A stretch of 64,000 bases of DNA, taken from the NCBI RefSeq assembly GCF_048403405.1, contig NZ_CP183129.1, one strand, 5' to 3'. Every line of letters starts with the position of its first letter. Position 1 is the first letter of the stretch. This DNA is from Escherichia coli (GTDB taxonomy: Bacteria; Pseudomonadota; Gammaproteobacteria; Enterobacterales; Enterobacteriaceae). Shown here one piece after another: positions 3,049-19,543 of this stretch. The position numbers were made by a program, and so were the translations under genes. Below the pieces are notes generated by a model, which made no database searches, was not told the origin of the DNA, and saw only the letters and a list, made by a program, of their open reading frames with translations.

Positions 3049-6000
3049 TTATTTCCGTACCCGATGTCGGTGCAGCCACATCAGCTTATACGCCGCCGGG
3101 ATAATAAACAGCGATAGCAAAGGCGCGGTGATCATGCCGCCAATCATCGGCGCGGCAATCCGGCTCATCACCTCTGAACCTGCTCCCGTTCCCCACAGAA
3201 TCGGCAGCAGACCGGCGATAATCACTGCCACCGTCATCGCTTTCGGGCGCACGCGCAGGACCGCGCCGTGATACAACGCCTCATCCAGCTTCTGCTCGCT
3301 GAATGTTTGCGGATTATTCAACGACGGCTCGACCTCTATGGCGTGACGTAAATACATCAGCATCACCACGCCAAATTCGGCGGCGACTCCGGCGAGGGCA
3401 ATAAAACCGGTGCCCGTCGCCACGGAAAGATGAAAGCCCATCCACCACAGCAACCAGATGCCGCCCACCAGCGCAAACGGTACGCTGCTGATAATCAGCA
3501 ACGCTTCGCCCACCCGACGGAACGCCAGATACAACAGCACGAAGATGATCATCAGCGTCATCGGCACCATGAGTTTCAGCTTATGGTTGGCGCGCTCCAG
3601 TAGCTCGAACTGCCCGGAGAATGTCACGCTGGTGCCCGGTTTTAACTGCACTTTTTCAGCTATCGCTTTTTGCAAATCGTGAACCACCGACACCATGTCA
3701 CGATCGCGGGCATCGATATAAATCCAGCTCGTCGGGCGCGCATTCTCGGTTTTCAGCATCGACGGTCCGGTAGAGACTTTAACGTCGGCCACGTCTGCCA
3801 GGGTGATTTGCTGCTTCATCGGCGTCAGGATCGGCAACTGGCGCAGTGCCTGCGGACTATTGCGCCAGCTTTGCGGATAACGCAGATTAATTGGATAACG
3901 GGCAATCCCTTCCACCGTTTCGCCAACCATCGCCCCGCCCACCGCAGAAGTCACAAACAACTGCACATCCGCCACCGTCATACCGTAACGTGCGGCTTTT
4001 TCACGGTTAATCTCAACGTTGATATAGCGCCCACCTTCCAGACGCTCGGCAAGCGCAGAAGCCACGCCTGGCACCGTTCGTGCCACCTCTTCAATTTGCT
4101 CCGCCATCGCGTCGATATCCGCCAGCACAGTGCCGGAAACTTTAATGCCGATGGGGCTCTTAATGCCGGTTGAGAGCATATCGATACGGTTACGAATTGG
4201 CGGCACCCACAGATTCGCCAGCCCCGGCAGACGCACGGTGTTATCCAGTTCCTCAATGATTTTGTCCATCGTCATGCCTGGCCGCCACTGATCTTGTGGC
4301 TTAAGCTGGATGGTCGTTTCTACCATCTCCAGCGGAGCAGAATCGGTGGCGGTTTCCGCTTTCCCGGTTTTGCCAAATACCCGCGCCACTTCAGGTACGC
4401 TCATAATCAGCTTGTCGGTTTTTTGCAGCATACTCGCCGCCTCTGCTGCGGAAATCCCCGGCAGCGTCGATGGCATATACAACAAGTCGCCTTCATTGAT
4501 CTGCGGTAAAAATTCCCCGCCAACTTTATTGAGCGGCCAGAGAACCGTCAGCACCGAAAGCGCTGCCACCAGCAGCGTGGTTTTTGGCCAGTGCAGTACT
4601 TTCAGCAACAGCGGATGATAAGCACGAATCAAAAAGCGATTGAGCGGGTTACTGCTTTCTGGCGGAATTTTGCCACGGATCCAGTAACCCATCAGGATAG
4701 GGATCACTACGATCGCCAGCAGCGCCGCACCCGCCATCGCATACGTTTTGGTGAACGCCAGCGGGCCAAACAGACGCCCTTCCTGCCCTTCCAGGGTGAA
4801 GATCGGGATAAACGACAACGTGATAATCAGCAGACTGATAAACAGCGCCGGCCCCACTTCAACAGATGCATCGGTGATCACCTGCCAGCGCGTTTTATTA
4901 TCCAGCGTGGCGTCAGGATGCTGGTGCTGCCACTCTTCCAGTCGTTTATGCGCATTCTCGATCATGACGATAGCGGCATCGACCATCGCCCCGACGGCAA
5001 TCGCAATGCCGCCCAGCGACATAATATTGGCATTCAGCCCCTGGAAGTGCATGACAATAAAAGCAATACACAACCCCAGCGGCAACGAAATAATCGCCAC
5101 CAGCGCCGAGCGCACATGCCAGAGAAACAGCGCACAGACTACCGCCACCACAATAAACTCTTCCAGCAACTTGCCGCTGAGGTTGTCGATGGCGCGGTCA
5201 ATGAGCTGGCTGCGATCGTATGTTGTAACTATCTCCACGCCTTCCGGCAGACTGCTTTTCAGCGTTTCCAGTTTGTCTTTCACGGCGGCGATCACTTCTC
5301 GGGCGTTTTTGCCGGAGCGCAGGATCACCACCCCGCCCGCCACTTCGCCTTCGCCGTTCAGTTCGGCAATGCCCCGGCGCATCTCCGGGCCAATCTGGAC
5401 CTTCGCAACATCGCGCAGATAAACGGGCACGCCATTTTCACTGGCTTTTAAAACGATGTGATTAAAGTCGTCGAGCGTTTGCAGATAGCCGCTGGCGCGC
5501 ACCATATATTCCGCTTCCGCCAGTTCGATCGACGAACCGCCCGCTTCCTGGTTTGAAGCATCCAGCGCGCTTTTTACTTCGGCGAGACTGATGCCATATT
5601 GCGCCAGGCGCTGGGGATCGATAACCACCTGATACTCTTTCACCACACCGCCCACCGACGCCACTTCCGCAACGTCAGGGATGGTTTTTAGCTCATATTT
5701 GAGAAACCAGTCCTGCAATGAGCGTAAATCGGCCAGATCGTGCTTACCGCTGCGATCCACCAGTGCATATTCATAGATCCAGCCAACACCCGTGGCATCT
5801 GGCCCCAGCTCAGCGCTGACTCCCGCAGGCAGCTTACCCTGTACCTGGTTGAGGTACTCCAGCACCCGCGAGCGCGCCCAGTATGGATCGGTGCCATCTT
5901 CGAAAATGACATACACATAAGAGTCGCCAAACTGCGAGAAACCGCGCACAGTCTTCGCGCCAGGCACCGACAACATAGTGGTGGTTAGCGGATAAGTCAC

Positions 6001-6192
6001 CTGATTTTCAACGATTTGCGGTGCCTGACCGGGATAGCTGGTTTTAATAATCACCTGCACATCAGAGAGATCCGGCAGTGCATCCACTGGCGTGTTAATG
6101 ATGGTCCAGGTGCCCCAGATACTCAGAAACAACGCGCCCATCAGCACCAGAAAACGGTTCGCCACCGAGCGACGAATAATCCATTCAATCAT
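3049..6192 (-). CDS. cusA: RND copper/silver efflux pump, inner membrane transporter CusA
   Basis: 1047-aa ORF, RND transporter; synteny cusCFBA. Confidence 0.95.
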
Positions 6193-6203
6193 TGGTTATT
6201 CCC

Positions 6204-7427
6204 TCAATGCGCATGGGTAGCACTTTCAGAGCGCATCCGCTCCAGTGCGCCAGAAATATTGGCTTCGGAATCAATCAGGAACAGGCCGCTGGAAACCACC
6301 TTTTCACCTTCCGCCAGACCAGAGCGTAATGCGGTGACGCCTTGCGATGCCTGGAAAACGGCAACGCGTTTCGGTACAAAGCGCCCGTCGGCATCAACGG
6401 TAATCACCCGCTGTTCGCTGCCGGTATCAATCAGCGCTTGTGACGGAATGAGCAGCATCGGTTCGCTGGCGGTGTTGAGTTGCAACCAGGCGTTCATTCC
6501 CGGCTTTAGCGCCTCGTCGGTGTTGTCGACTTCCAGGCGCAGCTGCAGCGTGCGGGTTGCGGCATCCACGCCGGGTAGCAGCGTCCATTTGCGGATGGTG
6601 AGTGTTTTATCAGGTCGTGCCGGAACGGTGAGCGTAAACTGCGAGGCATCTTTCACCAGCCAGGCGATGGACTCCGGGATCGCGGCAGTGATCCACACCG
6701 GATCCATACCCTGAATTTTCGCGACCACGTTATCTTTGGCGATATTCATTCCCGCGCGCAGATCAAACGCGGTGATCACGCCATCAATGGGCGCTTTGAG
6801 CGTAAAGCGAGTCTGGATTTTTTGCGTGGCGATCAGGCGGCGAATATCCGCCTCCGGCATTCCCGCCAGTCTCAGCCGCTCAAGAATGCCTTCAGTCTGG
6901 GTCGCCGTACCGCCAGTTTCGCGCAGCAGTAAATACTCACTCTGCGCTTCCACCCAGTCGGGAATGGTCAGGTCGAGAAGCGGCGCGCCCTTTTGTACTT
7001 TATCGCCCACGGTAAGCGGATACACCTTGTCGATAAACCCGGCGGCGCGGGCCTGCACAATGGCATACTGATACTCGTTGTAACTGACATTCGCCGGGAA
7101 ACTTTGGGCAAAAGTCAGCGGCCCGCGCGTGACGGTCGCCGTTTTCACCCCCAGATTCTGCGTCTGAGTCGGGTCAATGCGCACACCAGACGCAGAACTC
7201 TCTTCATCGGCATATTTCGGCACCAGATCCATATCCATAAACGGCGATTTACCTGGTTTATCGAACCGCGTATTGGGATACATCGGGTCGTACCAGAATA
7301 AGATTTTACGTTCTGCGGTCGACGTTTTTTCTGCGGGCGGTTCCGCCTTTGCAAACCAGGTAAAACCTGCCGCAGAAATAATACCGCCCGCGATCATGCT
7401 GCCGATAATAAGCGCGATTTTTTTCAT
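6204..7427 (-). CDS. cusB: Copper/silver efflux membrane fusion protein CusB
   Basis: 407-aa ORF with signal/TM N-terminus; position between cusF and cusA. Confidence 0.95.
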   Translation of the reverse strand: MKKIALIIGSMIAGGIISAAGFTWFAKAEPPAEKTSTAERKILFWYDPMYPNTRFDKPGKSPFMDMDLVPKYADEESSASGVRIDPTQTQNLGVKTATVTRGPLTFAQSFPANVSYNEYQYAIVQARAAGFIDKVYPLTVGDKVQKGAPLLDLTIPDWVEAQSEYLLLRETGGTATQTEGILERLRLAGMPEADIRRLIATQKIQTRFTLKAPIDGVITAFDLRAGMNIAKDNVVAKIQGMDPVWITAAIPESIAWLVKDASQFTLTVPARPDKTLTIRKWTLLPGVDAATRTLQLRLEVDNTDEALKPGMNAWLQLNTASEPMLLIPSQALIDTGSEQRVITVDADGRFVPKRVAVFQASQGVTALRSGLAEGEKVVSSGLFLIDSEANISGALERMRSESATHAH

Positions 7428-7442
7428 CTCATTAAACCTGGG

Positions 7443-7775
7443 TTACTGGCTGACTTTAATATCCTGTAATAAAGAAAGGTTGCCCTGCTGGACAAAATTA
7501 AACGCCACTTTGTCGCCGGTTTTTATTTCGCCCATCTTCGTCTGCGGGGTGATGGTAAAGCGCATGGTCATCTCCGGCCAGTTCACGGCAGCAATCGGAT
7601 CGTGATGGATAGTGATTTTTTTGCTTTCCAGATCAATACCTTTTACCACCCCTGTGGCACTAATGACCTGCGGTTGTGCTTCGCTCATGGTTTCATGATG
7701 ATGTTCGTTAGCCTGGGCATTAAAGCCAATAACGGTAAACAGACTGAACATTGCGACTTGCAGTGCTTTTTTCAT
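7443..7775 (-). CDS. cusF: Periplasmic copper/silver chaperone CusF
   Basis: 110-aa ORF, signal peptide MKKALQVAMFSLFTVIGFNAQA. Confidence 0.95.
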   Translation of the reverse strand: MKKALQVAMFSLFTVIGFNAQANEHHHETMSEAQPQVISATGVVKGIDLESKKITIHHDPIAAVNWPEMTMRFTITPQTKMGEIKTGDKVAFNFVQQGNLSLLQDIKVSQ

Positions 7776-7798: not shown

Positions 7799-9175
7799 TT
7801 ATTGCTGCCAACCGCCACCAAGTGCGGTATATAAAGAAATTTCGTTAACCTGACGGGCATAATTCAGGTCAAGTAAAGTTTGTCGGGTTGCAAATAAAGA
7901 ACGTTCGGCATCCAGCACTTCCAGATAACTGACTGCGCCGTGCTGATATAATGCCCGCGCCCGTTGCAAAGTAATTTGCAGCGATGCCAGATAACGCTGC
8001 TGGGCGCTAATTTGATCGTTCAGGCTTTGACGTAATGCCAGCGCATCTGCCACTTCTTTAAAGGCATTCTGGATTTTCTGTTCATAATTCACCACCGACT
8101 GCTGCTGGCGAATTTCGGCGATATCCAGATTGGCCTGGTTGCGTCCGGCATTAAAAATGGGGATCTCAATTTTGGGAATAAAATTCCACATCCCGCTGCT
8201 GGCGTTAAATAAGGACGACAGATCGCTGCTGGCGGTCGATATTCCGCTGGTCAGACTGATAGACGGGAAAAATGCCGCGCGTGCAGCGCCAATATTGGCA
8301 TTAGCCGCCATCAACGCGTGTTCAGCTTCCATAATATCCGGGCGCTGCAATAAGATTTGCGACGACAAGCCCGCCGGTAATTTAACGCTTTGCAGGCTGT
8401 CGCTGTTTACTGTTTGCGCTTGCGGCAGCTTGCCGTAGCTTCCCAGCAACAGTTGCAATGCATTATTCGCCTGCGCCAGTTCCCCCTGACGTTTAGCGAT
8501 GTCGCTGCGGGTACTTTCTATCACCCCGCGAGCCTGTTCCAGCGCCAGAACATTGCTGCTACCGGTCAACAGTTGTTTTTCGACAAACGCATATGACTGC
8601 TGATAATTACGCAGCGTTTCTTCGGCTATTTGCAATTGCGCATACGCCAGTTGCTGATTGAAATAGCTTTGCGCGACATTAGAAACCAGCAGAATATGCA
8701 CCGCGCGCTGGGCTTCCTCAGTGGCTAAATAATTTTGGCGCTCGGCTTCGCTCATGTTCTTTAAGCGACCGAAAAAATCGAGATCAAAGCTGGCGTTAAG
8801 GCCGGTCGAAAACTCCCGTGTCGTGGCGGTATTCCCTTTAAGATTACCGCTCCAGCTGCCGCTGCCCTCGCCATTGAGCTGTGGGTAGCGGTCGGCATCG
8901 GTCAGACGATATTGCGCCCGTGCCTCCTGCACTTTCAGCGTCGCCATGCGCAAATCCCGGTTATTCACCAGCGCCTCGCTAATCAGCGTCTTCACCTGAT
9001 TATCAATAAAAAAGGTGCGCCAGCCCGCGTTCTGGTAGTTATCTGCTGCGTTAACCAGGCCGTTCTGGCTGAGTGAGAACTGCTTCGGTACGGGCATTGC
9101 CGGACGCTGATAATCCGGTGCCAATGAACAACCGGTTAGCGCAAGGGCCACACAAAATGGCAGAAGTTTAGGCAC
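7799..9175 (-). CDS. cusC: Outer membrane factor CusC, 5' end and promoter replaced by IS26
   Basis: 458-aa ORF whose first codon (GTG, complement of 9173-9175) lies inside the IS26 terminal repeat; recalled native N-terminus MSPCKLLPFCV is here (V/M)PKLLPFCV. Confidence 0.85.
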   Translation of the reverse strand: MPKLLPFCVALALTGCSLAPDYQRPAMPVPKQFSLSQNGLVNAADNYQNAGWRTFFIDNQVKTLISEALVNNRDLRMATLKVQEARAQYRLTDADRYPQLNGEGSGSWSGNLKGNTATTREFSTGLNASFDLDFFGRLKNMSEAERQNYLATEEAQRAVHILLVSNVAQSYFNQQLAYAQLQIAEETLRNYQQSYAFVEKQLLTGSSNVLALEQARGVIESTRSDIAKRQGELAQANNALQLLLGSYGKLPQAQTVNSDSLQSVKLPAGLSSQILLQRPDIMEAEHALMAANANIGAARAAFFPSISLTSGISTASSDLSSLFNASSGMWNFIPKIEIPIFNAGRNQANLDIAEIRQQQSVVNYEQKIQNAFKEVADALALRQSLNDQISAQQRYLASLQITLQRARALYQHGAVSYLEVLDAERSLFATRQTLLDLNYARQVNEISLYTALGGGWQQ

Positions 9176-9990
9176 TGTTGCAAATAGTCGGTGGTGATAA
9201 ACTTATCATCCCCTTTTGCTGATGGAGCTGCACATGAACCCATTCAAAGGCCGGCATTTTCAGCGTGACATCATTCTGTGGGCCGTACGCTGGTACTGCA
9301 AATACGGCATCAGTTACCATGAGCTGCAGGAGATGCTGGCTGAACGCGGAGTGAATGTCGATCACTCCACGATTTACCGCTGGGTTCAGCGTTATGCGCC
9401 TGAAATGGAAAAACGGCTGCGCTGGTACTGGCGTAACCCTTCCGATCTTTGCCCGTGGCACATGGATGAAACCTACGTGAAGGTCAATGGCCGCTGGGCG
9501 TATCTGTACCGGGCCGTCGACAGCCGGGGCCGCACTGTCGATTTTTATCTCTCCTCCCGTCGTAACAGCAAAGCTGCATACCGGTTTCTGGGTAAAATCC
9601 TCAACAACGTGAAGAAGTGGCAGATCCCACGATTCATCAACACGGATAAAGCGCCCGCCTATGGTCGCGCGCTTGCTCTGCTCAAACGCGAAGGCCGGTG
9701 CCCGTCTGACGTTGAACACCGACAGATTAAGTACCGGAACAACGTGATTGAATGCGATCATGGCAAACTGAAACGGATAATCAACGCCACGCTGGGATTT
9801 AAATCCATGAAGACGGCTTACGCCACCATCAAAGGTATTGAGGTGATGCGTGCACTACGCAAAGGCCAGGCCTCAGCATTTTATTATGGTGATCCCCTGG
9901 GCGAAATGCGCCTGGTAAGCAGAGTTTTTGAAATGTAAGGCCTTTGAATAAGACAAAAGGCTGCCTCATCGCTAACTTTGCAACAGTGCC
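9171..9990 (+). mobile_element. IS26 (IS6 family), copy 1, 820 bp
   Basis: 14-bp terminal inverted repeats GGCACTGTTGCAAA at 9171-9184 and complement at 9977-9990; internal tnp26 ORF. Confidence 0.95.
9234..9938 (+). CDS. tnpA: IS26 transposase Tnp26 (R29H variant)
   Basis: 234-aa protein MNPFKGRHFQRDIILWAVRWYCKYGISY(H)ELQ... matches recalled Tnp26; codon 29 is CAT here and CGT in copy 2. Confidence 0.95.
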   Translation: MNPFKGRHFQRDIILWAVRWYCKYGISYHELQEMLAERGVNVDHSTIYRWVQRYAPEMEKRLRWYWRNPSDLCPWHMDETYVKVNGRWAYLYRAVDSRGRTVDFYLSSRRNSKAAYRFLGKILNNVKKWQIPRFINTDKAPAYGRALALLKREGRCPSDVEHRQIKYRNNVIECDHGKLKRIINATLGFKSMKTAYATIKGIEVMRALRKGQASAFYYGDPLGEMRLVSRVFEM

Positions 9991-10439
9991 AATTTTACGC
10001 CGTCGGCGGTACGCAGCCAGCGCGGGGATTTGAGTCCTTCCGTGAAATTCCAGACCAGCTCACACAGCAGCCCGGTCAGGGTTTGCTCCATTTTTGGTTC
10101 CGCCGGACGTTCCAGCAGAAGCTGGAGTAGTGCGAGGCAGTATTCGCACAAGGAATCAGGTTCGGAAATAAAGTGCTCTGGTGTGGCGGGAAGGGTATCC
10201 ACGGTCAGGCTTTCGGTAAGATGCGGTGGGATGGGGTCGTGTAGTGTGGGTTGCAGTAGCGCAAGAGCCGCGTGAAGCCGCCCGCAGAGCGCCAGTCGTA
10301 GCGCTGGATCGTCGGTTTCAATCAGGGTTTCGGCAAAGCGGGCGCAGTAGTCAGCAAGGACAGTGAAATCCGTGGTGGCATTGAAGGGGACGGTCAATAG
10401 ATCGAGTAAATCGCTGTCAGTGGTGAGGATTGTAGCCAT
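9972..10439 (-). CDS. Hypothetical protein, 3' end truncated by IS26 (last ~5 codons and stop supplied by IS26)
   Basis: 155-aa ORF with GGAGG 8 nt upstream of ATG; acidic, Leu-rich product; reading frame runs into the IS26 end at 9990. Confidence 0.5.
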   Translation of the reverse strand: MATILTTDSDLLDLLTVPFNATTDFTVLADYCARFAETLIETDDPALRLALCGRLHAALALLQPTLHDPIPPHLTESLTVDTLPATPEHFISEPDSLCEYCLALLQLLLERPAEPKMEQTLTGLLCELVWNFTEGLKSPRWLRTADGVKLALLQS

Positions 10440-10785
10440 AGGGCAACCTCCGATAAGTGGGTGTTCAAGCCACCACCGGAGAGGCTAATCTCGCGGGTGG
10501 TGGAACCGGGCAGGGTTAGCCTTACCAGCCTTATCGGACACTGGCGCGTCTTGCGACGCCCCCGCCCGGCCCACCATTGAGATGTAACCGTGCGAACAAC
10601 ACAAAAAAAGACGCTGGCGCGTCATGTGTCGCCGATAAGATTTCTTCAGGAGGCTAATCCCGACGCCTGATTTTGCAGGCGCGGGAGAAAGATACTGCGA
10701 TTGGTCATGAGTGGCAAGGGCTACATCATGTTTACCGACATCTCACGCAAAAATACCCTGATTATTAATAGCGAAAATCAGTTTC
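10440..10785 (-). other. GC-rich, repeat-rich non-coding region downstream of the RT gene; candidate structured ncRNA
   Basis: No ORF of 60 aa or more; hairpin ccaccacc/ggtggtgg (10481-10503); inverted pair ccgataag/cttatcgg (10451-10458, 10530-10537); direct repeats gaggctaatc (10490-10499 and 10651-10660) and ctggcgcgtc (10541-10550 and 10611-10620). Confidence 0.3.
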
Positions 10786-13700
10786 TTATTTTGGCGGTAG
10801 CTTTTTGCGGTTCTTTGCCAACTGGAATCCTTCAGGTAACGGTTTGAATTTATCGCCGCCTTTAGGCCAGCGTTTTGCCCTGCTCTGAAATGCCCTTAAC
10901 GAGTCGATATCCAGCGTTGCAGCGACCACAAAGTCATTATCACCGCCCTTCACACGAGCAATATCACGCATAAAGGGTTCTTTTGCCGGGGAACGTACGC
11001 GACTATCGCCGTATTTTCGGTTATTCACTAAAATAGTATAGGCATGAATATCCAGCGCTGCTGATTCAATCAACGATGCAAACGTATCTAGATCTTTATT
11101 CCAGCTCAATACCATTAATGCATCGAGTGCGCCCTGAAAACGGATCCTCGCTTTACTATTCTGGAGTTCAGAGCAAATCATAACGCCAAAATTGACGCCG
11201 TGATGAATATATACCGGCTTACGTTGTTTAACATTAAGTGTCGAATCCCAAGACTTACCATAAGTTGAAAATAATGCCTCATCTTCACCTACGGCGGGTT
11301 CCAGCTTGGGTTGCCATATTTTGACACTCGCTGGATAGCCGAGTCTGTTATCTGAAAGGACAAGTACGGCCTCACTCTTCAGTTGATTATCGTCTAAGTG
11401 GCGGTATTCTGTTCCCGCAATTAGACTGATACCCGCCGAACTCAAACGATCAGCAATACTGTTAACCCAGCGTAACGGGATTGAAAGCTCAGGGAATAAA
11501 ACATAATCAGGTTTAGGAGATAGTTTCAATGTTGCATTAACCAGTTCAGAAATCCGCTGGTACCTTGAACGGGACAAGTTAGATTTATTGCAGGCCATTT
11601 TAGCCCAGTCGTCCTCCTCTGTTTTAATGCTGGTTAGCGCAACGACAACTTTATGTTTCCTGTCTGTGCCAATATGAATGAATTTCTTAGGCCGAGCTTT
11701 TTTTGTCGCTTCATCTGAGTCCTGCTCCGATGCTAGCAACGTCGGTTTGATCCATACTCCGCGTAATGCTTGAGTATATTTTGCCCAAATGGTGGACGGT
11801 CTCTCATCTGGTTTTTTGTCGGATGTGGAGGGTAATCCAACACATTCGGGGGCCAGTTCTGATATTTCAGCGGGTGTTAAAGGACGTGTAGGGAAAATGT
11901 AAGGTAGGTAACTTTCGTTTTTACGATTTCCTTTAGCCACTTTTTCCAGTCGGGTATTCTTGGTTGATTTCAAAAATAGCTTAATAACGTCAATATCAAT
12001 AAGCGATGAGTCGCTCATTAATTTCAGTATTTTAACTTCTTTTTTACTATCACGCTGATTAACAAGTTTTTCTGCCGACTGACTCTTTACGATCTGTTTA
12101 TAAGGTTCCTTTGCTAAATCAGCTCGAGCTACCAATGGCGCTTTTAAATAAAAATCTGCTGAATCAAAGCGAAGATCCAGTAAATCCTTTAGATTCGTCA
12201 GACTTTGTGAAATATGATTAAAAAATGTATCCGCAAGGCACTCTTCTTTCTTTGAACGTTTATCAAGAAATAATCTGTCAGGACTGTAATATCGTGTCGC
12301 TGCATCAACAAATAGCCAGCTTAATGTGCCTTTTATACAGCGCCAAAGATCATTTACTGCTCGAGTTTTGCAACCATTTATATTCACTTCCTTACCTGAA
12401 GTAATCACCGATGCCAACAGGTTGATGGATTCGTAAGCTTTAAGTACAATTTTTTCCGCGTGCTGCCATTCATTCATACTGATAGCAAAGCCAAGCAGCC
12501 TTGGCAGATAACTAAAATGTGCAAATAGATTATCAGCCCTAAGAATATGGTTGTAGGCAAACTGATAAAACTCTTCCCGCTGTTCTTTCCATTCACTTGG
12601 AGGCAGATCTCGTGCCAGTGTTTCAACGTAGCGTAATTGCAGTGACCAGCCCAAACGACGAATGGTTAATCCATCCGCACGGCGCAGAGTATCGGCATTT
12701 TCACCTACACTACCGGCAGCGGAAAGGACTTTAGCTGCGGTGGAGTGTTCCAGTTGATCCGGTGAAGGCATCAAGCGGTGTTCACTAGAAAGCTCGTAGA
12801 TCTCCTTTTCGATACTGTCGAGCAGGTCTATTCCAGCCCTCCCTTGAAGCACGAAAAGTTTTTGCTTATCGGATTGTAACTGGATGGTGGTCTTACCCTG
12901 GAAATGCTCGCCCTGCTGTATTTGCCATATTTGTTTTTGCTCGTTTTTCAAATAAACGCAATCATTGCCAAGCCTATCTTGCAGCAATAACATAAATTCG
13001 TGATTATTAGTAATTGTCCCTGTATCGCGTATTACAAGGAACATATCATCGACATAACGACCGTAGTGAATTGGTGATAGTTTTTCAATGACTAATTTAT
13101 CCCAATGGTGTAGCAATATATTTGAAATGATCCGACTGGCTGTTAATCCAATGACCAGACCACCATTAATAACAGGTGTTTTGTACGCTATTTTCTTTCC
13201 AAATGCCGCTGCGCCGTCAGACCAGTGCTTTAAGAATACTGCTAACTGTGCAGTAAACGCTTTTTCATCCTCAGTCAGTTTTATGTTTAGTGTGTTATAG
13301 AGATCATCAGAGGTTATAGCCAGTGGATCAATAAAATGATAGTAACTTTTTAAATCCAGTGAGGCGGCGATAATGTCACGATCTTTTTCCAACTCGTCAC
13401 GTATAGCTTTTAAGCCATCACCACGCCATTTTTGGTAGGGCTGGAAGTAGGGGCTAAAAGAACCCACGGCACTGATATGGAATGGATTATCCTGCTCATT
13501 GCTAAATAATTCATCATTACGAATACGCTTTAGCCGCGCGCCATAGCAACAGTTATCTAAGCTGGCATCAAATTTATGCCCGACCATGTTAATCCATAGT
13601 GCAGAGATAATGTGACTATCAACCGGGAAGTCACCAATAATACGAAACTCTGGTATCAGATCAAAATTATTAAATAAATGGTCGGCTGCTCGTTTAGGAT

Positions 13701-13995
13701 TAGAAAAGTGGACGTGTCCATTTTGGGATTCATGTTTTTTCTTTGTGGTTAATTTTTTCGGTAACAAACGAAATTTGCCAATCAACTTCTTATTGCTACT
13801 GAATCCATCTTCGCTCTGCAAAAGATCTAAGAGTTTTTGCAGGTTTTCAAGTAATTCCTGCTCATACTCGGCAAATTTGATAGCAACAGGAAATGTATTC
13901 TCAAAGAAGCTATCGGCTTTTGCTTTCCGGTAAGCGACCAGAAGGTCTTCAATCGTCAGATCATCCCAGCCAGTGAAAATTGCCTGATATGTCAT
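10786..13995 (-). CDS. Defence-associated reverse transcriptase fused to C-terminal nitrilase (CN-hydrolase) domain, DRT type 1-like (UG1-like)
   Basis: 1069-aa ORF with AAGGA RBS; RT motifs LDLKSYYHFID, GGLVIGLTASRIISNILL, YVDD (complement of 13045-13056); nitrilase triad context FPELS, VKIWQPK, GVMICSEL (Cys codon complement of 11173-11175). Confidence 0.75.
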   Translation of the reverse strand: MTYQAIFTGWDDLTIEDLLVAYRKAKADSFFENTFPVAIKFAEYEQELLENLQKLLDLLQSEDGFSSNKKLIGKFRLLPKKLTTKKKHESQNGHVHFSNPKRAADHLFNNFDLIPEFRIIGDFPVDSHIISALWINMVGHKFDASLDNCCYGARLKRIRNDELFSNEQDNPFHISAVGSFSPYFQPYQKWRGDGLKAIRDELEKDRDIIAASLDLKSYYHFIDPLAITSDDLYNTLNIKLTEDEKAFTAQLAVFLKHWSDGAAAFGKKIAYKTPVINGGLVIGLTASRIISNILLHHWDKLVIEKLSPIHYGRYVDDMFLVIRDTGTITNNHEFMLLLQDRLGNDCVYLKNEQKQIWQIQQGEHFQGKTTIQLQSDKQKLFVLQGRAGIDLLDSIEKEIYELSSEHRLMPSPDQLEHSTAAKVLSAAGSVGENADTLRRADGLTIRRLGWSLQLRYVETLARDLPPSEWKEQREEFYQFAYNHILRADNLFAHFSYLPRLLGFAISMNEWQHAEKIVLKAYESINLLASVITSGKEVNINGCKTRAVNDLWRCIKGTLSWLFVDAATRYYSPDRLFLDKRSKKEECLADTFFNHISQSLTNLKDLLDLRFDSADFYLKAPLVARADLAKEPYKQIVKSQSAEKLVNQRDSKKEVKILKLMSDSSLIDIDVIKLFLKSTKNTRLEKVAKGNRKNESYLPYIFPTRPLTPAEISELAPECVGLPSTSDKKPDERPSTIWAKYTQALRGVWIKPTLLASEQDSDEATKKARPKKFIHIGTDRKHKVVVALTSIKTEEDDWAKMACNKSNLSRSRYQRISELVNATLKLSPKPDYVLFPELSIPLRWVNSIADRLSSAGISLIAGTEYRHLDDNQLKSEAVLVLSDNRLGYPASVKIWQPKLEPAVGEDEALFSTYGKSWDSTLNVKQRKPVYIHHGVNFGVMICSELQNSKARIRFQGALDALMVLSWNKDLDTFASLIESAALDIHAYTILVNNRKYGDSRVRSPAKEPFMRDIARVKGGDNDFVVAATLDIDSLRAFQSRAKRWPKGGDKFKPLPEGFQLAKNRKKLPPK

Positions 13996-14289
13996 GCGTT
14001 ATCGTCCTTAGATTACAGTCTGTACAGAATTAGCCAGCCGTTTCATGCCCGAAGGGGGGCTCTTGACACCAGTAATCCATCAGTGAGGCTGGCAATAATT
14101 TTGATTTGTATCCATGTTACACGCTCCCCGCAACCAGTCCGAGCATATATTTGTCACATTTTTCCCGAAAGTGATTAAGTTTGAATTTTTTGTTTAATGT
14201 CGATTTTTAGTCGACAAAATGAGGAATAAGTAAACTATTTCTTGCTGTGGCGTATCCCTGAATCTACACTGGTTTAAATATTTGTACTA
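13996..14289. promoter_or_regulatory. Divergent promoter region between RT gene and abiEi, with palindrome gtcgatttttagtcgac (14200-14216)
   Basis: AT-rich 294-bp spacer between divergently oriented genes; inverted repeat is a candidate AbiEi operator. Confidence 0.35.
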
Positions 14290-15093
14290 ATGTCTATTCA
14301 GAGGCGACAGTTGCCAAACTATCTAAACTGGCTGATGCAGCACACGCTACCCGGCCAGGTGCTGCTCCAGTCATGGCTTACCCGCAACGGCATAGATCGT
14401 AAGCTCTCTTATCTCTATGTGAAGAATGGCTGGCTCAGGCGGATCGCTCACGGCGTATACTGCCGGACGGGCCGTGAGCCGGATTGGGTAGACGCGGTTT
14501 ACTGCCTTCAAACACAGTGGGAAAAGCCTGTTCGGGTGGCGGGGCTAACCAGCCTTGCGCTTCAGGGCCATGCGCACTATACCGAACCGGGTAAGCCGCA
14601 GGTCTGGCTCGCGCTTCCGGCTTACGTTAAGCTGCCGGGATGGTTTGCTGCCTTCGAACAATCTGCAACATTTATCACGCTGTATACATCGGGGCTTACC
14701 GTAGATGTAACGTCATTGACTACGGAACTGAAAATTGGCGACCGCCAGTTAGCAGGCAGTGCCCCGGAACTGGCCGCGTATGAGATCGCCTGCGGCGTTC
14801 CTTCGTTGATATCGTTCGAACATGCCGATGCTCTGTTTCAGGGGATGAATCTTCTCAGCCCACGCAAATTGCAGGCACTGCTTCGCGCCAGCCATTCGGT
14901 TAAAACCAACCGGGTGATGCTTTACCTTGCCCGGCGTAATGGACACCCTTATTTTCAGTATATTGATCAAAGCGGTATAGAAACAGGTACGGGAAAGCGG
15001 CAAATCATACCCGGCGGCTGGCTGGAGCCGGATTATCAAATTACTGTTCCACGCGCATTTAAACCGGAAGGAGTCGAAGATGGATCTGCGTGA
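14290..15093 (+). CDS. abiEi: AbiEi-family antitoxin/transcriptional regulator (type IV TA / abortive infection)
   Basis: 267-aa ORF, N-terminal motif ...GWLRRIAHGVY typical of AbiEi; overlaps downstream AbiEii gene by 14 nt. Confidence 0.7.
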   Translation: MSIQRRQLPNYLNWLMQHTLPGQVLLQSWLTRNGIDRKLSYLYVKNGWLRRIAHGVYCRTGREPDWVDAVYCLQTQWEKPVRVAGLTSLALQGHAHYTEPGKPQVWLALPAYVKLPGWFAAFEQSATFITLYTSGLTVDVTSLTTELKIGDRQLAGSAPELAAYEIACGVPSLISFEHADALFQGMNLLSPRKLQALLRASHSVKTNRVMLYLARRNGHPYFQYIDQSGIETGTGKRQIIPGGWLEPDYQITVPRAFKPEGVEDGSA

Positions 15094-16000
15094 TAGCTAT
15101 GCCCGGCAGGTCAAACTGTTGATGGCCGCTCTGCCGTATGTGGCGAAGGAGTCCTGTTTCGCGTTGAAAGGCGGCACCGCAATCAATTTGTTTGTGCAGG
15201 ATTTTCCCCGTCTGTCGGTGGATATTGATCTGGCGTACAAGAGCTTTGCGGATCGCGATACTGATTTGGCGGCTATCAACGACGCTTTGAAGAGGATTAC
15301 TGCATCGCTGAACGGCAGACCGGGGATCACCGCGATTCGGCAGGAAAATAAAGCGGATGAAAAGCGCATCATTGTGAATACCGCTGATGCAAAGATTAAG
15401 ATCGAGGTTAGCCCGGTCTGGCGCGGGCTGTTGTTGCCTCCGGCAGAAATGCCTGTGTGCGAACGTGTGGAAATGGAGTATGGCTTCACCACCATGAGTG
15501 TCGTCTCGCTGGCGGATCTTTATGGCGGTAAAATCTGCGCTGCGCTTGATCGTCAGCACCCGCGCGATCTGTTTGATGTGCTGAATATGCTGGAGAAACC
15601 GGGACTGATGCGGGAGATCTTTGACGGTTTTCTTTGTTATCTGGCAGGCCATCCCCGCCCCATCGCCGAGTTGCTGGCTCCAAACTGGGATACAGAGCGG
15701 ATCGCCACGTTGTACGCGCAGGAATTTTCGGGGATGACTCAGCAGGAAACGTCGCTGGAATCGCTGCTGTCAGTAACGACTTTGCTGCCGCAGGCGTTGA
15801 AGTCACATCTTACGGATCTGGATCGCGAGTTCTTGCTCAGTTTTAAGCAAAACAGCCCTGACTGGTCGCGGTATCGCTATCCTGAAATTCAGCATCTTCC
15901 GGCTATTCGCTGGAAGCAACGTAATCTGGCGGTGCTGAAAGATAAAAATCCGGCGAAGTATGTGGCGGCGGTGAATAAGCTAGAGAGGGTGCTGGCGTAA
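15080..16000 (+). CDS. abiEii: AbiEii/AbiGii-family nucleotidyltransferase toxin
   Basis: 306-aa ORF with SD GGAAGGA; motif ALKGGTAINLF...RLSVDIDLAY characteristic of AbiEii (DUF1814). Confidence 0.75.
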   Translation: MDLRDSYARQVKLLMAALPYVAKESCFALKGGTAINLFVQDFPRLSVDIDLAYKSFADRDTDLAAINDALKRITASLNGRPGITAIRQENKADEKRIIVNTADAKIKIEVSPVWRGLLLPPAEMPVCERVEMEYGFTTMSVVSLADLYGGKICAALDRQHPRDLFDVLNMLEKPGLMREIFDGFLCYLAGHPRPIAELLAPNWDTERIATLYAQEFSGMTQQETSLESLLSVTTLLPQALKSHLTDLDREFLLSFKQNSPDWSRYRYPEIQHLPAIRWKQRNLAVLKDKNPAKYVAAVNKLERVLA

Positions 16001-16364
16001 TCAATAGACCAGCATTAATCACGGATGATTACCAATCAGACAGATATGGTTAAATCATCGAATTCATAATTAATACTTTTTCTTACGCCGCTGAACAGCT
16101 TGAAAAGGATACATATTTTAAATATCAGTGAAGTGGACAGTTTATTGCCGTTATTAATAGAGATGGAGGAATAAATACGCGTATTCTACTATTGCAACAA
16201 AAACAACGATGATGATCAGTTTTCATAATGAAGTAACCTGACAGATATAAAAATGTTGATTGAGGCTCAATGCCCGGATGAAGGTTGTCGAGGGAGCCAG
16301 GTGGTTTTTTCTTTTGGGTGATCTCCATTGCTGGATAGTCCCCTCTTTCTCGCTCAAAGCAGAC

Positions 16365-16689
16365 TGTACTGCACCCATTTTGTTGGACGATGAAATGGAA
16401 TAGCCCCTAATATGTCAAAGCCAAAATACCCTTTTGAAAAGCGCCTTGAAGTCGTGAATCACTACTTCACAACTGATGATGGTTACAGGATCATCTCGGC
16501 ACGTTTTGGTGTCCCCCGAACCCAGGTCAGGACATGGGTTGCCCTCTATGAAAAACATGGAGAAAAAGGTTTAATTCCCAAACCTAAAGGCGTTAGTGCT
16601 GATCCAGAGTTGCGTATTAAGGTCGTGAAAGCTGTGATCGAGCAGCACATGTCCCTTAATCAGGCTGCTGCTCACTTTATGCTTGCTGG
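16365..16689 (+). mobile_element. IS150 (IS3 family) left-end fragment, truncated by IS26
   Basis: Begins TGTACTGCACCCATTTTGTTGGACG; encodes the N-terminal ~90 aa of InsJ/OrfA (MSKPKYPFEKRLEVVNHYFTTDDGYRIISARFGVP...) ending at the IS26 boundary. Confidence 0.8.
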
Positions 16690-17509
16690 GGCACTGTTGC
16701 AAATAGTCGGTGGTGATAAACTTATCATCCCCTTTTGCTGATGGAGCTGCACATGAACCCATTCAAAGGCCGGCATTTTCAGCGTGACATCATTCTGTGG
16801 GCCGTACGCTGGTACTGCAAATACGGCATCAGTTACCGTGAGCTGCAGGAGATGCTGGCTGAACGCGGAGTGAATGTCGATCACTCCACGATTTACCGCT
16901 GGGTTCAGCGTTATGCGCCTGAAATGGAAAAACGGCTGCGCTGGTACTGGCGTAACCCTTCCGATCTTTGCCCGTGGCACATGGATGAAACCTACGTGAA
17001 GGTCAATGGCCGCTGGGCGTATCTGTACCGGGCCGTCGACAGCCGGGGCCGCACTGTCGATTTTTATCTCTCCTCCCGTCGTAACAGCAAAGCTGCATAC
17101 CGGTTTCTGGGTAAAATCCTCAACAACGTGAAGAAGTGGCAGATCCCACGATTCATCAACACGGATAAAGCGCCCGCCTATGGTCGCGCGCTTGCTCTGC
17201 TCAAACGCGAAGGCCGGTGCCCGTCTGACGTTGAACACCGACAGATTAAGTACCGGAACAACGTGATTGAATGCGATCATGGCAAACTGAAACGGATAAT
17301 CAACGCCACGCTGGGATTTAAATCCATGAAGACGGCTTACGCCACCATCAAAGGTATTGAGGTGATGCGTGCACTACGCAAAGGCCAGGCCTCAGCATTT
17401 TATTATGGTGATCCCCTGGGCGAAATGCGCCTGGTAAGCAGAGTTTTTGAAATGTAAGGCCTTTGAATAAGACAAAAGGCTGCCTCATCGCTAACTTTGC
17501 AACAGTGCC
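16690..17509 (+). mobile_element. IS26, copy 2, 820 bp, same orientation as copy 1
   Basis: Terminal repeats GGCACTGTTGCAAA at 16690-16703 and complement at 17496-17509. Confidence 0.95.
16753..17457 (+). CDS. tnpA: IS26 transposase Tnp26
   Basis: 234-aa protein matching recalled Tnp26 (R29). Confidence 0.95.
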   Translation: MNPFKGRHFQRDIILWAVRWYCKYGISYRELQEMLAERGVNVDHSTIYRWVQRYAPEMEKRLRWYWRNPSDLCPWHMDETYVKVNGRWAYLYRAVDSRGRTVDFYLSSRRNSKAAYRFLGKILNNVKKWQIPRFINTDKAPAYGRALALLKREGRCPSDVEHRQIKYRNNVIECDHGKLKRIINATLGFKSMKTAYATIKGIEVMRALRKGQASAFYYGDPLGEMRLVSRVFEM

Positions 17510-19543
17510 AAACCGTTAGCGATTATGGTTCCGGCGTGGAATGAAACGGGCGTCATCGGCAATATGGCCGAGCTGGCGGCGACCACGCTCGACTATGAAA
17601 ACTATCATATCTTTGTTGGCACCTACCCCAACGACCCCGATACACAGCGTGATGTTGACGAAGTGTGCGCTCGCTTCCCGAACGTGCATAAGGTAGTCTG
17701 CGCGCGTCCTGGCCCCACCAGCAAAGCCGACTGCCTGAACAACGTGCTGGACGCCATCACCCAGTTTGAGCGTAGCGCCAATTTCGCTTTTGCTGGTTTT
17801 ATTCTGCATGACGCCGAAGACGTAATTTCACCGATGGAATTGCGTCTGTTCAACTATCTGGTCGAGCGTAAAGATCTGATTCAGATCCCGGTGTATCCGT
17901 TCGAACGCGAATGGACGCACTTCACCAGCATGACTTACATTGATGAGTTTTCAGAACTGCATGGCAAAGATGTTCCGGTGCGTGAAGCCCTCGCCGGACA
18001 AGTGCCCAGCGCAGGCGTCGGTACCTGTTTCAGCCGCCGCGCCGTGACCGCACTGTTAGCTGACGGTGACGGTATTGCTTTCGACGTGCAGAGTCTTACT
18101 GAAGATTACGACATTGGTTTCCGCCTGAAAGAAAAAGGTATGACGGAAATTTTTGTCCGTTTTCCGGTGGTGGACGAAGCCAAAGAACGCGAGCAGCGTA
18201 AATTTTTACAGCACGCGCGGACGTCAAACATGATCTGCATGCGCGAATATTTCCCTGATACCTTTTCGACTGCGGTTCGACAAAAATCTCGCTGGATCAT
18301 CGGCATTGTTTTCCAGGGCTTTAAAACCCACAAATGGACCTCCAGCCTGACGCTGAACTACTTTCTCTGGCGCGACCGCAAAGGGGCAATCAGTAACTTT
18401 GTCAGCTTTCTCGCGATGCTGGTGATGATCCAGCTTCTGCTGTTACTGGCGTATGAAAGTTTGTGGCCCGATGCCTGGCATTTCCTTTCTATTTTCAGCG
18501 GCAGCGCATGGTTAATGACCCTGCTGTGGCTAAACTTTGGTTTGATGGTTAACCGCATCGTGCAGCGGGTGATTTTTGTCACTGGCTACTACGGTCTGAC
18601 GCAGGGGCTGCTATCTGTCCTGCGTCTTTTCTGGGGCAACCTGATTAACTTCATGGCCAACTGGCGCGCGTTAAAACAGGTACTTCAACACGGCGATCCA
18701 CGTCGTGTCGCGTGGGATAAAACAACGCATGACTTCCCCAGCGTGACTGGCGATACCCGCTCGTTGCGCCCGTTAGGCCAAATTCTGCTGGAAAATCAGG
18801 TCATCACTGAAGAACAACTCGATACAGCACTGCGTAATCGCGTCGAAGGTCTACGCCTGGGCGGTTCAATGCTGATGCAGGGGCTGATTAGCGCCGAACA
18901 GCTGGCACAGGCGCTGGCAGAGCAAAACGGCGTGGCGTGGGAATCCATCGACGCCTGGCAGATCCCGTCCTCGCTGATTGCCGAAATGCCGGCCTCCGTG
19001 GCGCTGCATTATGCAGTGCTGCCGCTGCGTCTGGAAAATGATGAGTTAATTGTCGGCAGTGAAGATGGTATTGACCCGGTTTCGCTGGCGGCCCTGACGC
19101 GTAAAGTCGGACGCAAAGTGCGTTACGTCATTGTTCTGCGGGGACAAATTGTCACGGGGTTACGTCACTGGTATGCACGCCGACGCGGTCACGATCCGCG
19201 GGCAATGTTGTACAATGCGATTCAGCATCAGTGGCTCACGGAACAGCAGGCCGGTGAAATCTGGCGGCAATATGTGCCGCATCAGTTCCTGTTCGCCGAA
19301 ATACTGACCACGCTCGGTCATATTAATCGTTCAGCAATTAACGTGTTGTTATTGCGCCATGAACGCAGTTCTCTGCCGCTCGGCAAGTTTTTGGTCACCG
19401 AAGGCGTTATCAGCCAGGAAACGTTGGATCGCGTCCTGACAATTCAACGCGAATTACAAGTTTCGATGCAATCACTATTACTCAAAGCAGGTTTAAACAC
19501 AGAACAGGTTGCGCAACTGGAGTCCGAAAATGAAGGAGAATAA
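17510..19543 (+). pseudogene. nfrB: nfrB (c-di-GMP-controlled glycosyltransferase, phage N4 adsorption protein B), 5'-truncated by IS26
   Basis: Native reading frame begins directly at the IS26 right end (KPLAIMVPAWNETGVIGN...); ~70 N-terminal codons of the recalled 745-aa NfrB are missing; longest ORF 17525-19543. Confidence 0.85.

What the first reader, a model, noticed from the sequence alone, without database searches (positions are those of the whole stretch)
9150..9200. cusCFBA is decoupled from its promoter and two-component regulator; IS26 terminus supplies an in-frame GTG
The IS26 left end abuts cusC at about codon 4 of the native gene (recalled native start MSPCKLLPFCV; here the frame is gtg-cct-aaa-ctt-ctg with gtgcc coming from the IS26 inverted repeat). 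The native cusC promoter, CusR box, cusR and cusS are all gone. I see no convincing Shine-Dalgarno upstream of the GTG inside IS26, and tnp26 is transcribed away from cusC. Copper/silver efflux by CusCFBA is therefore predicted to be silent or constitutively low. A -35-like TTGCAA lies in the IS26 terminal repeat reading outward, so a weak hybrid promoter cannot be excluded.
Basis: partly seen in the sequence, partly recalled or inferred. Interest (0 to 1): 0.6.

Follow-up and report, generated by a model that had tools for sequence, protein, structure and literature searches.

The report
IS26 cuts cusCFBA from its promoter
An IS26 insertion sequence sits at codon 4 of the E. coli copper/silver efflux operon cusCFBA and has removed its promoter and copper-sensing regulators from the locus, so the intact pump genes are most likely silent; this is an ordinary, strain-specific IS26 rearrangement.

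Summary
IS26 (9171-9990, +) abuts cusC (minus strand) after removing the first 11 nt of the gene and everything upstream. The IS26 end restores a frame, GTG-CC|T-AAA-CTT. It encodes pre-CusC with a signal peptide two residues shorter and an unchanged mature protein.

An 8.3-kb IS26-cargo-IS26 unit replaces the 19,579 bp that closest relatives carry here: cusR, cusS, a vgrG/Rhs cluster and the first 68 codons of nfrB. There are no target-site duplications. The junction is absent from 5,426 complete E. coli genomes.

Three refinements:
- **Start codon versus hybrid promoter.** The GTG lies inside the spacer downstream of IS26's outward -35 (TTGCAA). Any hybrid promoter would therefore start transcription beyond that GTG and cannot yield exported CusC.
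- **Shine-Dalgarno argument.** The native cusC ATG also lacks a Shine-Dalgarno match, so this argument is weak.
- **Origin of the cargo.** It is same-genome DNA from the thrW island about 340 kb away, carrying a reverse-transcriptase-nitrilase defence gene, AbiE and a C4 antisense RNA. cusRS may therefore be deleted or merely relocated.

The nearest co-oriented promoter is under C4-type repression. Best reading: cusCFBA is non-inducible and essentially silent. This is an ordinary IS26 event of low interest.

The parts
3049..6192 (-). cusA, intact (1047 aa)
   Evidence: TIGR00914 CusA/CzcA family, 1666.7 bits against a cut-off of 701. 100% DNA identity to relatives.
6204..7427 (-). cusB, intact (407 aa), own weak Shine-Dalgarno match
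   Evidence: NF007303 CusB, 860.8 bits. One amino-acid difference from L001.
7443..7775 (-). cusF, intact (110 aa), strong Shine-Dalgarno match (AGGAG)
   Evidence: NF007348 CusF, 205.8 bits. Anti-SD duplex energy -7.4 kcal/mol.
7799..9175 (-). cusC' chimeric ORF. GTG and CC come from the IS26 terminal repeat and the rest is native cusC from the third base of codon 4. The lipobox LTGC is retained.
   Evidence: NF007347, 898.9 bits.
9173..9175 (-). In-frame GTG supplied by IS26. It is the only start that keeps the signal peptide; an in-frame stop lies at 9205-9203.
   Evidence: Reading. No anti-SD complementarity in the 25 nt upstream.
9178..9183 (-). IS26 outward-facing -35 element TTGCAA
   Evidence: Seen directly in the sequence. 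Its function as a -35 is documented with 5'RACE in PMC11156391 and reviewed in PMC7986276.
9154..9162 (-). The only -10 candidate for a hybrid promoter: TGcCATTTT, 18-nt spacer, 3/6 match. It lies inside cusC codons 5-8.
   Evidence: It is below the threshold of the tool scan.
9171..9990 (+). IS26 copy 1 (tnp26 9234-9938). It carries a private G149A change giving Tnp26 R29H.
9972..10439 (-). 155-aa ORF from the thrW island. IS26 cut off its last 22 nt, and it reads into IS26 toward cusC. Strong Shine-Dalgarno match (GGAGG).
10493..10581 (-). C4-type antisense RNA. Its loop UCCGAUAAG is complementary to 10457-10449, which overlaps the Shine-Dalgarno sequence of the 155-aa ORF.
   Evidence: Rfam RF01695, 71.1 bits against a gathering score of 45. 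Complementarity.
10604..10717 (-). Promoter-like site TTGCCA-17-TATCTT (10717-10689), followed by an isrK-like RNA/leader (10682-10604) that ends in a terminator-like hairpin plus T-run (10623-10610). This is the nearest co-oriented promoter upstream of cusC.
   Evidence: Rfam RF01394, 68.8 bits against a gathering score of 50.
10786..13995 (-). Reverse transcriptase-nitrilase (UG5 class) defence gene, 1069 aa (cargo)
   Evidence: PADLOC PDLC03780 RT_UG5-nitrilase, 1034 bits.
14290..16000 (+). AbiEi (14290-15093) and AbiEii (15080-16000) toxin-antitoxin/abortive-infection pair (cargo)
   Evidence: PADLOC AbiEi 264 bits and AbiEii 385 bits.
16365..16689 (+). First 325 nt of IS150, truncated by IS26 copy 2
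16690..17509 (+). IS26 copy 2, in direct orientation relative to copy 1
17510..19543 (+). nfrB lacking its first 68 codons and its promoter (ORF from ATG 17525, 672 aa)
   Evidence: NF008411 matches profile positions 68-722.

Best explanation
**What happened (shown).** An IS26-mediated rearrangement replaced 19,579 bp of chromosome with an 8,339-bp IS26-cargo-IS26 unit. The lost interval runs from cusC codon 4 through cusR, cusS and a vgrG/Rhs cluster to nfrB codon 68. The cusC'FBA coding sequences remain intact, but at this locus the sigma-70 promoter, the CusR box and the CusS/CusR system are gone.

**What the IS26 end does (shown).** It fortuitously restores an ORF, GTG-CC|T..., encoding pre-CusC with signal peptide MPKLLPFCVALALTG|C.

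**Why the operon is probably silent (inferred).**
- Nothing identifiable transcribes that GTG. The outward -35 of IS26 lies just upstream of it, so any hybrid promoter must start inside cusC, beyond the GTG. Its only -10 candidate is poor.
- The nearest co-oriented promoter is 1.5 kb upstream. It belongs to a P1-c4/P4-cI-type immunity module whose antisense RNA covers the ribosome-binding site of the next ORF. In the P1 and P4 paradigms this curtails downstream transcription.

The operon is therefore predicted to be uninducible by Cu(I)/Ag(I) and silent or only trace-expressed, which amounts to a functional loss of Cus efflux.

**Most economical route (inferred).** An IS26 adjacent deletion was combined with integration of a translocatable unit made from the strain's own thrW island.
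For: - **Junction and native comparison:**
- **IS26 copies and absence of target-site duplications:** flanks are GAAGTTTA/AATTTTAC and CTTGCTGG/AAACCGTT.
- **Size and content of the replaced interval:** 19,579 bp in strains 4621, MS 69-1 and TUM1226.
- **Recency:** the flanks match strain 4621 with 0 mismatches in 9,170 nt and 2 in 46,491 nt, so the event is recent.
- **Regulators absent:** no cusR/cusS homologue and no CusR box in the window.
- **Dependence on the regulators:** cusCFBA expression depends on CusS/CusR (PMC9302797; PMC8966772).
- **Hybrid-promoter geometry and quality:** TTGCAA, 18 nt, CATTTT. This scores 7/12 and was not listed by the scan. Documented IS26 hybrid promoters use CATAAT at 17 nt.
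- **No internal promoters:** promoter-like sites inside the operon or IS26 do not exceed chance.
- **Upstream immunity module:** C4 and isrK RNAs, with 9-nt complementarity over the Shine-Dalgarno sequence of the 155-aa ORF.
- **CusC is required:** TolC cannot replace CusC, and mature CusC starts at the lipidated Cys (PMC3017539). A transcript lacking the GTG therefore gives no functional outer-membrane channel.
Against: - No expression data exist; silence is inferred from sequence only.
- No terminator-like site or marked C-rich/G-poor stretch was found on the antisense strand of IS26. Read-through from the 155-aa ORF, which lost its own 3' end, is therefore physically possible.
- The native cusC start also lacks a Shine-Dalgarno match, so the GTG might be usable if it is transcribed.
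- The -10 candidate carries an extended TG motif. Only 0.74% of random insertion sites in this window would offer that, so some transcription of cusFBA is conceivable.
- The consensus scans are crude.
Confidence: 0.72

Rival explanations
1. Constitutive rewiring. Read-through from the truncated 155-aa ORF or the reverse-transcriptase gene crosses IS26 in antisense. Alternatively, a cryptic promoter inside IS26 transcribes the GTG. Either way, cusC'FBA would be expressed at a low to moderate constitutive level, independent of CusRS, and would give a working pump.
For: - The 155-aa ORF lost its 3' end and native terminator to IS26 and points at cusC.
- No terminator-like hairpin lies on the minus strand within IS26, and no strong rut-like region was found.
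- The signal peptide and lipobox are preserved.
- The native start has no Shine-Dalgarno match either.
- cusF, cusB and cusA keep their own ribosome-binding sites.
Against: - The upstream operon is preceded by an isrK-like terminator and by a C4 antisense RNA that pairs with the Shine-Dalgarno sequence of the 155-aa ORF. In P1 and P4 this arrangement causes premature termination (established knowledge, recalled from memory).
- About 800 nt of untranslated antisense IS26 RNA would be exposed to Rho.
- The start would be a GTG with no Shine-Dalgarno match.
- Weak promoter-like matches inside IS26 are at chance level.
Confidence: 0.15
2. An IS26 hybrid promoter (TTGCAA, 18 nt, TGcCATTTT) is active and transcribes from about 9149-9145. 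This would give cusFBA expression but only a signal-peptide-less, non-functional CusC, and so an incomplete pump.
For: - The IS26 -35 is experimentally documented (PMC11156391; PMC7986276).
- The flank offers A2/T6 and an extended TG, which occurs at 0.74% of random sites.
Against: - The -10 matches only 3/6, with C at position 1 and a non-optimal 18-nt spacer.
- It falls below the scan threshold.
- Without the TG, 11.7% of random sites do as well.
Confidence: 0.1
3. cusRS and the cusC promoter are not lost from the genome. Either the 19.6-kb block was exchanged with the 6.4-kb thrW-island segment through two IS26-mediated inversions or recombination, or the assembly was mis-threaded through identical IS26 copies. 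In the latter case IS26 would be a simple insertion in cusC codon 4. Copper-induced transcription from cusCp could then read through IS26 into cusC'.
For: - The cargo is 100% identical to chromosomal DNA 327-347 kb away in strain 4621 and other relatives, in inverted orientation.
- No target-site duplications are present.
- The 820-bp repeats are classic sites of assembly ambiguity.
Against: - Two directly oriented IS26 copies bounding a segment is the canonical product of translocatable-unit integration.
- IS26 adjacent deletions without duplications are well documented (PMC9330008).
- A double inversion needs more steps.
- The two IS26 copies differ by one base, which would help an assembler resolve them.
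- Even in this scenario the given sequence separates cusCp from cusCFBA.
Confidence: 0.25

Closest known systems
IS26 hybrid promoters (aphA1 in PTn4352/PTn6020, the aac(6')-Ib-cr/blaOXA-1 transposon, blaSHV-2a, blaKPC)
   Same: The same outward-facing TTGCAA -35 hexamer, located 7 nt from the IS end and placed next to a captured gene.
   Different: In the known cases IS26 lands upstream of the gene and meets a good -10 (for example CATAAT at 17 nt), so the whole coding sequence is transcribed. Here IS26 landed inside the coding sequence. The only -10 candidate is 3/6 at 18 nt, and the predicted start lies downstream of the only usable start codon.
IS26 pseudo-compound transposons / translocatable units, and IS26 intramolecular replicative deletions
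   Same: Two directly oriented IS26 copies bracket a passenger segment. There are no 8-bp target duplications, and neighbouring DNA has been lost (mechanism).
   Different: The passenger is not plasmid-borne resistance DNA. It is a 6.4-kb piece of the strain's own thrW island carrying phage-defence genes, plus an IS150 fragment. No resistance gene is present.
Laboratory delta-cusRS mutants and natural loss of cus in Salmonella
   Same: Without CusR/CusS there is no copper induction from the cusC promoter (PMC9302797; PMC8966772).
   Different: Here the promoter and the CusR box are physically removed as well. Even a CusR/SilR/PcoR-type regulator supplied in trans could not act at this locus.
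P1 c4 / P4 cI antisense-RNA immunity modules (Rfam C4, isrK)
   Same: A leader with target repeats, a C4 RNA, and a downstream ORF whose Shine-Dalgarno sequence is complementary to a C4 loop.
   Different: This is a degenerate island remnant, and its downstream operon is cut by IS26 after one ORF. Its activity here is untested.

Membership tests
IS26 (IS6/IS26 family) | An 820-bp element with perfect 14-bp terminal inverted repeats GGCACTGTTGCAAA | tested here: met
   Four repeat copies define two 820-bp elements, 9171-9990 and 16690-17509.
IS26 (IS6/IS26 family) | A single 234-aa Tnp26 transposase gene | tested here: met
   9234-9938 translates to a 234-aa protein. Plasmid matches are annotated 'IS6-like element IS26 family transposase'. 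Copy 1 carries R29H.
IS26 (IS6/IS26 family) | An 8-bp target-site duplication flanking a simple insertion | tested here: not met
   The flanks GAAGTTTA/AATTTTAC and CTTGCTGG/AAACCGTT share no match in any pairing. This is expected after a deletion, conservative integration or recombination, so it does not count against the element being IS26.
IS26 hybrid promoter | The -35 TTGCAA in the terminal repeat, reading outward | tested here: met
   9183-9178 on the minus strand.
IS26 hybrid promoter | A resident -10 hexamer with a good consensus match, 16-18 nt downstream in the flank | tested here: not met
   The best candidate is CATTTT (3/6) at 18 nt. It is preceded by TG but scores 7/12 overall and was not listed by the scan.
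IS26 hybrid promoter | The transcript includes the start codon of the activated gene | tested here: not met
   The GTG at 9175-9173 lies in the spacer, so the predicted start is near 9149-9145 (geometry).
IS26 hybrid promoter | A mapped transcription start or measured expression | not testable with these tools
   Requires 5'RACE or a reporter assay.
CusCFBA-CusRS copper/silver efflux system | Four structural genes cusC-cusF-cusB-cusA, in that order and intact | tested here: met
   All four NCBIfam hits exceed the curated cut-offs. The sequences are identical or nearly identical to relatives.
CusCFBA-CusRS copper/silver efflux system | A divergent cusRS adjacent to cusC, with a CusR box in the intergenic region | tested here: not met
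   Absent from the locus and from the window. It is present in 5,334 of 5,426 complete genomes.
CusCFBA-CusRS copper/silver efflux system | CusC precursor with a lipoprotein signal peptide and lipobox | tested here: met
   MPKLLPFCVALALTG|C keeps the Lys, the hydrophobic core and LTGC. The mature protein begins at Cys (PMC3017539).
IS26 pseudo-compound transposon | Two directly oriented IS26 copies bounding a passenger segment | tested here: met
   Both copies are on the + strand and bound the passenger 9991-16689.
IS26 pseudo-compound transposon | The same unit found in other contexts, or shown to move | tested here: not met
   No record covers at least 80% of 9171-17509 in 5,426 genomes or with both junctions in PLSDB. 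Mobility is untested.

The most novel reading that the evidence does not exclude
The most novel reading still open has two parts. First, IS26 carried out a same-chromosome exchange or translocation, mobilising a phage-defence island (UG5 reverse transcriptase-nitrilase, AbiE and a C4 immunity RNA) from thrW into the cus/nfrB region. Second, the IS-supplied GTG together with read-through converts cusCFBA into a CusRS-independent, constitutively expressed pump. On this reading one IS26 event would knock out the phage N4 receptor pathway, add a second copy of the defence island or move it to a new site, and rewire metal efflux.
Probability: 0.1. Interest if true: 0.45.

Novelty: new member of a known kind. 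Interest (0 to 1): 0.2.

Why it matters
If the prediction holds, this isolate is a very close relative of the human bloodstream strain 4621. It would have lost inducible periplasmic Cu(I)/Ag(I) efflux while still scoring as cusCFBA-positive in gene-presence screens. That is a caution for genotype-based calls of metal resistance.

If cusRS is truly deleted, copper induction of hiuH-msrPQ would also be lost (PMC9302797).

The general lesson concerns IS26 geometry. Its terminal GTG lies inside the spacer of its own outward promoter. IS26 therefore cannot supply both the -35 and the start codon to the same gene.

None of this changes current understanding of IS26 or of Cus.

Tried and rejected
- **Resistance cargo.** I first guessed from ORF lengths that the cargo was sul2-strA-strB-like. 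PADLOC, PHROGs and NCBIfam show a reverse transcriptase-nitrilase and AbiE instead.
- **Plasmid origin.** I first took the cargo as plasmid-derived, because it matched MS 69-1 'plasmid unnamed3'. The same 6,374 bp is chromosomal in strain 4621, MS 69-1, TUM1226 and others, so this was revised.
- **Phage origin.** There was no match in 50,697 phage records.
- **Finding the source assembly.** I looked up the chimeric CusC', the chimeric 155-aa ORF and Tnp26 R29H to decide between deletion and relocation. None is on record.
- **Literature.** Searches for IS26 at cusC, or for IS26 supplying start codons, found nothing specific. Lee et al. 1990 on IS26/aphA7 is not held.
- **Rho-utilisation composition scan of antisense IS26.** Uninformative; the highest C/G ratio was 1.75.
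- **Global RNA duplex energies of C4 against its flanks.** Not distinguishable from shuffles. Only the exact 9-nt complementarity over the Shine-Dalgarno sequence is used.
- **Translational coupling.** A 197-aa antisense ORF in IS26 stops at TAA 9170-9168, just after the GTG. I set coupling aside as speculation because that ORF has no Shine-Dalgarno match and no promoter.
Full report
**1. The observation**

cusCFBA lies on the minus strand: cusA 3049-6192, cusB 6204-7427, cusF 7443-7775, and a 458-aa GTG-initiated cusC ORF at 7799-9175. All four exceed the curated NCBIfam cut-offs.

The 14-nt IS26 terminal repeat GGCACTGTTGCAAA occurs four times, against 0.01 expected by chance. It defines two 820-bp IS26 copies in direct orientation, at 9171-9990 and 16690-17509. 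They differ only at IS26 position 149.

tnp26 of copy 1 (9234-9938, + strand) is divergent from cusC. On the minus strand the junction reads ...TATTTGCAACAGTGCC|TAAACTTCTGCCATTTTGTG....

Alignment with a native locus (L001) shows identity from TAAACTT onward. The native ATGTCTCCTTG and everything upstream are replaced, including the CusR box AAAATGACAATTTTGTCATTTT. The chimeric frame GTG-CC|T-AAA-CTT gives (M)PKLLPFCVALALTGCS..., against native MSPCKLLPFCVALALTGCS.... The rest of CusC is identical, CusF is identical, and CusB differs at one residue from L001.

**2. What replaced what**

The right-hand IS26 abuts nfrB. Matches to relatives begin at 17510, which is codon 69 of nfrB. The remaining ORF (17525-19543, 672 aa) covers profile positions 68-722 of the NfrB model.

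In the three closest relatives (strains 4621, MS 69-1 and TUM1226) the two breakpoints are 19,579 bp apart. That interval holds cusR, cusS, a vgrG/DcrB/Rhs cluster, an ISAs1 element and the nfrB 5' end.

The window flanks match strain 4621 with 0 mismatches in 9,170 nt and 2 in 46,491 nt. The event is therefore very recent, and the intactness of the cus genes says nothing about selection.

None of the four IS26 flanks forms an 8-bp duplication. No record among 5,426 complete E. coli genomes contains either outer junction or the whole unit. The chimeric proteins are not on record in the large gene index.

The native cusC-cusR control region is present in 5,334 of 5,426 genomes, and cusA in 5,400. 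Loss of the control region with retention of cusA is therefore uncommon, about 1%, but not unheard of.

**3. The cargo**

The segment 9991-16364 carries the following:
- a 155-aa ORF whose last 22 nt were cut off by IS26;
- an isrK-like RNA and a C4 antisense RNA, both above their Rfam gathering scores;
- a 1069-aa UG5-class reverse transcriptase-nitrilase defence gene;
- an AbiEi/AbiEii pair.

It is followed by the first 325 nt of IS150.

I first took the cargo for plasmid DNA. However, the same 6,374 bp is 100% identical to a chromosomal island next to tRNA-Thr/proA in strain 4621 (4045172-4051545, opposite orientation) and in other relatives. That site is about 340 kb from cus.

IS26 has therefore moved or exchanged the strain's own DNA. 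The canonical route is a translocatable unit formed at thrW, integrated at or next to an IS26 that had deleted the cusC-to-nfrB interval. A reciprocal exchange that relocates cusRS, or assembly mis-threading through IS26, cannot be excluded from one window.

In every scenario the sequence as given separates cusCFBA from its promoter.

**4. Can cusC'FBA be expressed?**

*Regulation.* cusCFBA transcription depends on CusS/CusR (PMC9302797; PMC8966772). With the CusR box deleted, even a regulator supplied in trans cannot act here.

*Hybrid promoter.* The outward TTGCAA of IS26 is an experimentally documented -35 (PMC11156391, with 5'RACE; PMC7986276; PMC12802963). Here it occupies 9183-9178, and the GTG is at 9175-9173, inside the spacer. 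Any promoter using this -35 must therefore start at least 20 nt into the flank, downstream of the GTG.

The only -10 candidate is CATTTT at 9159-9154, with an 18-nt spacer and a 3/6 match. It is preceded by TG. The tool scan does not list it. A hexamer this good would arise at 11.7% of random insertion sites in this window, or 0.74% if the TG is required.

A transcript from it would begin near 9149-9145. The next in-frame starts lack a signal peptide: GTG codon 9, TTG codon 18 and ATG codon 27. Mature CusC begins at a lipidated Cys, and TolC cannot substitute for CusC (PMC3017539). Such a transcript could therefore give CusF, CusB and CusA but no functional channel.

*Read-through.* The nearest co-oriented promoter-like site is at 10717-10689. 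It is followed by an isrK-like leader with a terminator-like hairpin (10623-10610) and by the C4 RNA. The C4 loop UCCGAUAAG is exactly complementary to CUUAUCGGA at 10457-10449, which overlaps the GGAGG of the 155-aa ORF.

This is the P1 c4 / P4 cI arrangement. In those systems it blocks translation and causes premature termination; this is established knowledge recalled from memory, not tested here.

Beyond that ORF lie about 800 nt of untranslated antisense IS26 RNA. On the other hand, I found no terminator-like site or strong rut-like composition there, so leakage is possible.

*Translation.* The GTG has no Shine-Dalgarno match, but neither does the native ATG, so this argument carries little weight. 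The shortened signal peptide keeps the Lys, the hydrophobic core and the LTGC lipobox.

**5. Verdict**

The best-supported reading (about 0.72) is that cusCFBA is uninducible and silent or trace-expressed, a functional knock-out that gene-presence screens would miss.

The rivals are:
- constitutive read-through giving a working pump (about 0.15);
- a weak hybrid promoter expressing only cusFBA (about 0.10);
- independently of these, cusRS persisting elsewhere in the genome or an assembly artefact (about 0.25).

All of the components are known phenomena: IS26 adjacent deletion, pseudo-compound structures, and IS26 hybrid -35 elements. This is a new instance, not a new kind. Interest is low.

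The one generalisable point is geometric: IS26 cannot donate both its -35 and its terminal GTG to the same gene.

Noticed in passing
window 9991-16364: The DNA between the two IS26 copies is not plasmid or resistance DNA. It is a 100% identical copy of the strain lineage's own thrW (tRNA-Thr/proA) island, about 340 kb away in strain 4621. It carries a UG5 reverse transcriptase-nitrilase defence gene and AbiEi/AbiEii. Whether it is duplicated or relocated in this genome is unknown.
   Followed up: partly
window 17510-19543: The same rearrangement removes the promoter and first 68 codons of nfrB, a c-di-GMP-activated glycosyltransferase needed for phage N4 adsorption. This probably inactivates it. 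The IS26 right end offers TTGCAA, 18 nt, GATTAT (4/6) over the first in-frame ATG at 17525.
   Followed up: partly
window 10449-10717 (minus strand): A P1-c4/P4-cI-like immunity module. It has a promoter-like site, an isrK-like leader with a terminator, and a C4 antisense RNA (Rfam 71 bits). A 9-nt loop of the C4 RNA is complementary to the Shine-Dalgarno sequence of the downstream 155-aa ORF. RefSeq annotates an overlapping 'ash family protein' here in relatives.
   Followed up: partly
window 9319 (IS26 copy 1, position 149): A private G-to-A change gives Tnp26 R29H in the N-terminal DNA-binding region. It is absent from copy 2, from the 5,000 best plasmid IS26 matches and from the gene index. 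It could be a recent mutation or a sequencing error, and its effect on transposition is unknown.
   Followed up: partly
window 16365-16689: The first 325 nt of IS150 are inserted next to ykgR' and then truncated by IS26 copy 2. Strain 4621 has no IS150 at that site.
   Followed up: no
L003 / NZ_CP146678.1 (MS 69-1 'plasmid unnamed3', 64 kb, non-mobilizable): This record carries the same thrW-island genes and neighbouring chromosomal genes (LysR, hydrolase, MFS) as the MS 69-1 chromosome itself. That suggests an excised circle, a duplication or an assembly artefact rather than a true plasmid.
   Followed up: no
window 9168-9761 and 16672-17280 (minus strand): IS26 carries a long antisense ORF (197 and 202 aa here) that stays open through the left terminal repeat and stops only in the flanking DNA. 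At cusC its TAA (9170-9168) lies 2 nt after the GTG codon. It has no Shine-Dalgarno match and no promoter, so it is probably not expressed.
   Followed up: partly
L001 4483-4507 (native cusC 5' region): The native cusC ATG has no detectable Shine-Dalgarno complementarity. cusF and cusA have clear ones.
   Followed up: no
window 38559 and 57362: These are the only two differences from strain 4621 in 55.6 kb of flanking chromosome. They fall in ybcF (carbamate kinase) and allS.
   Followed up: no
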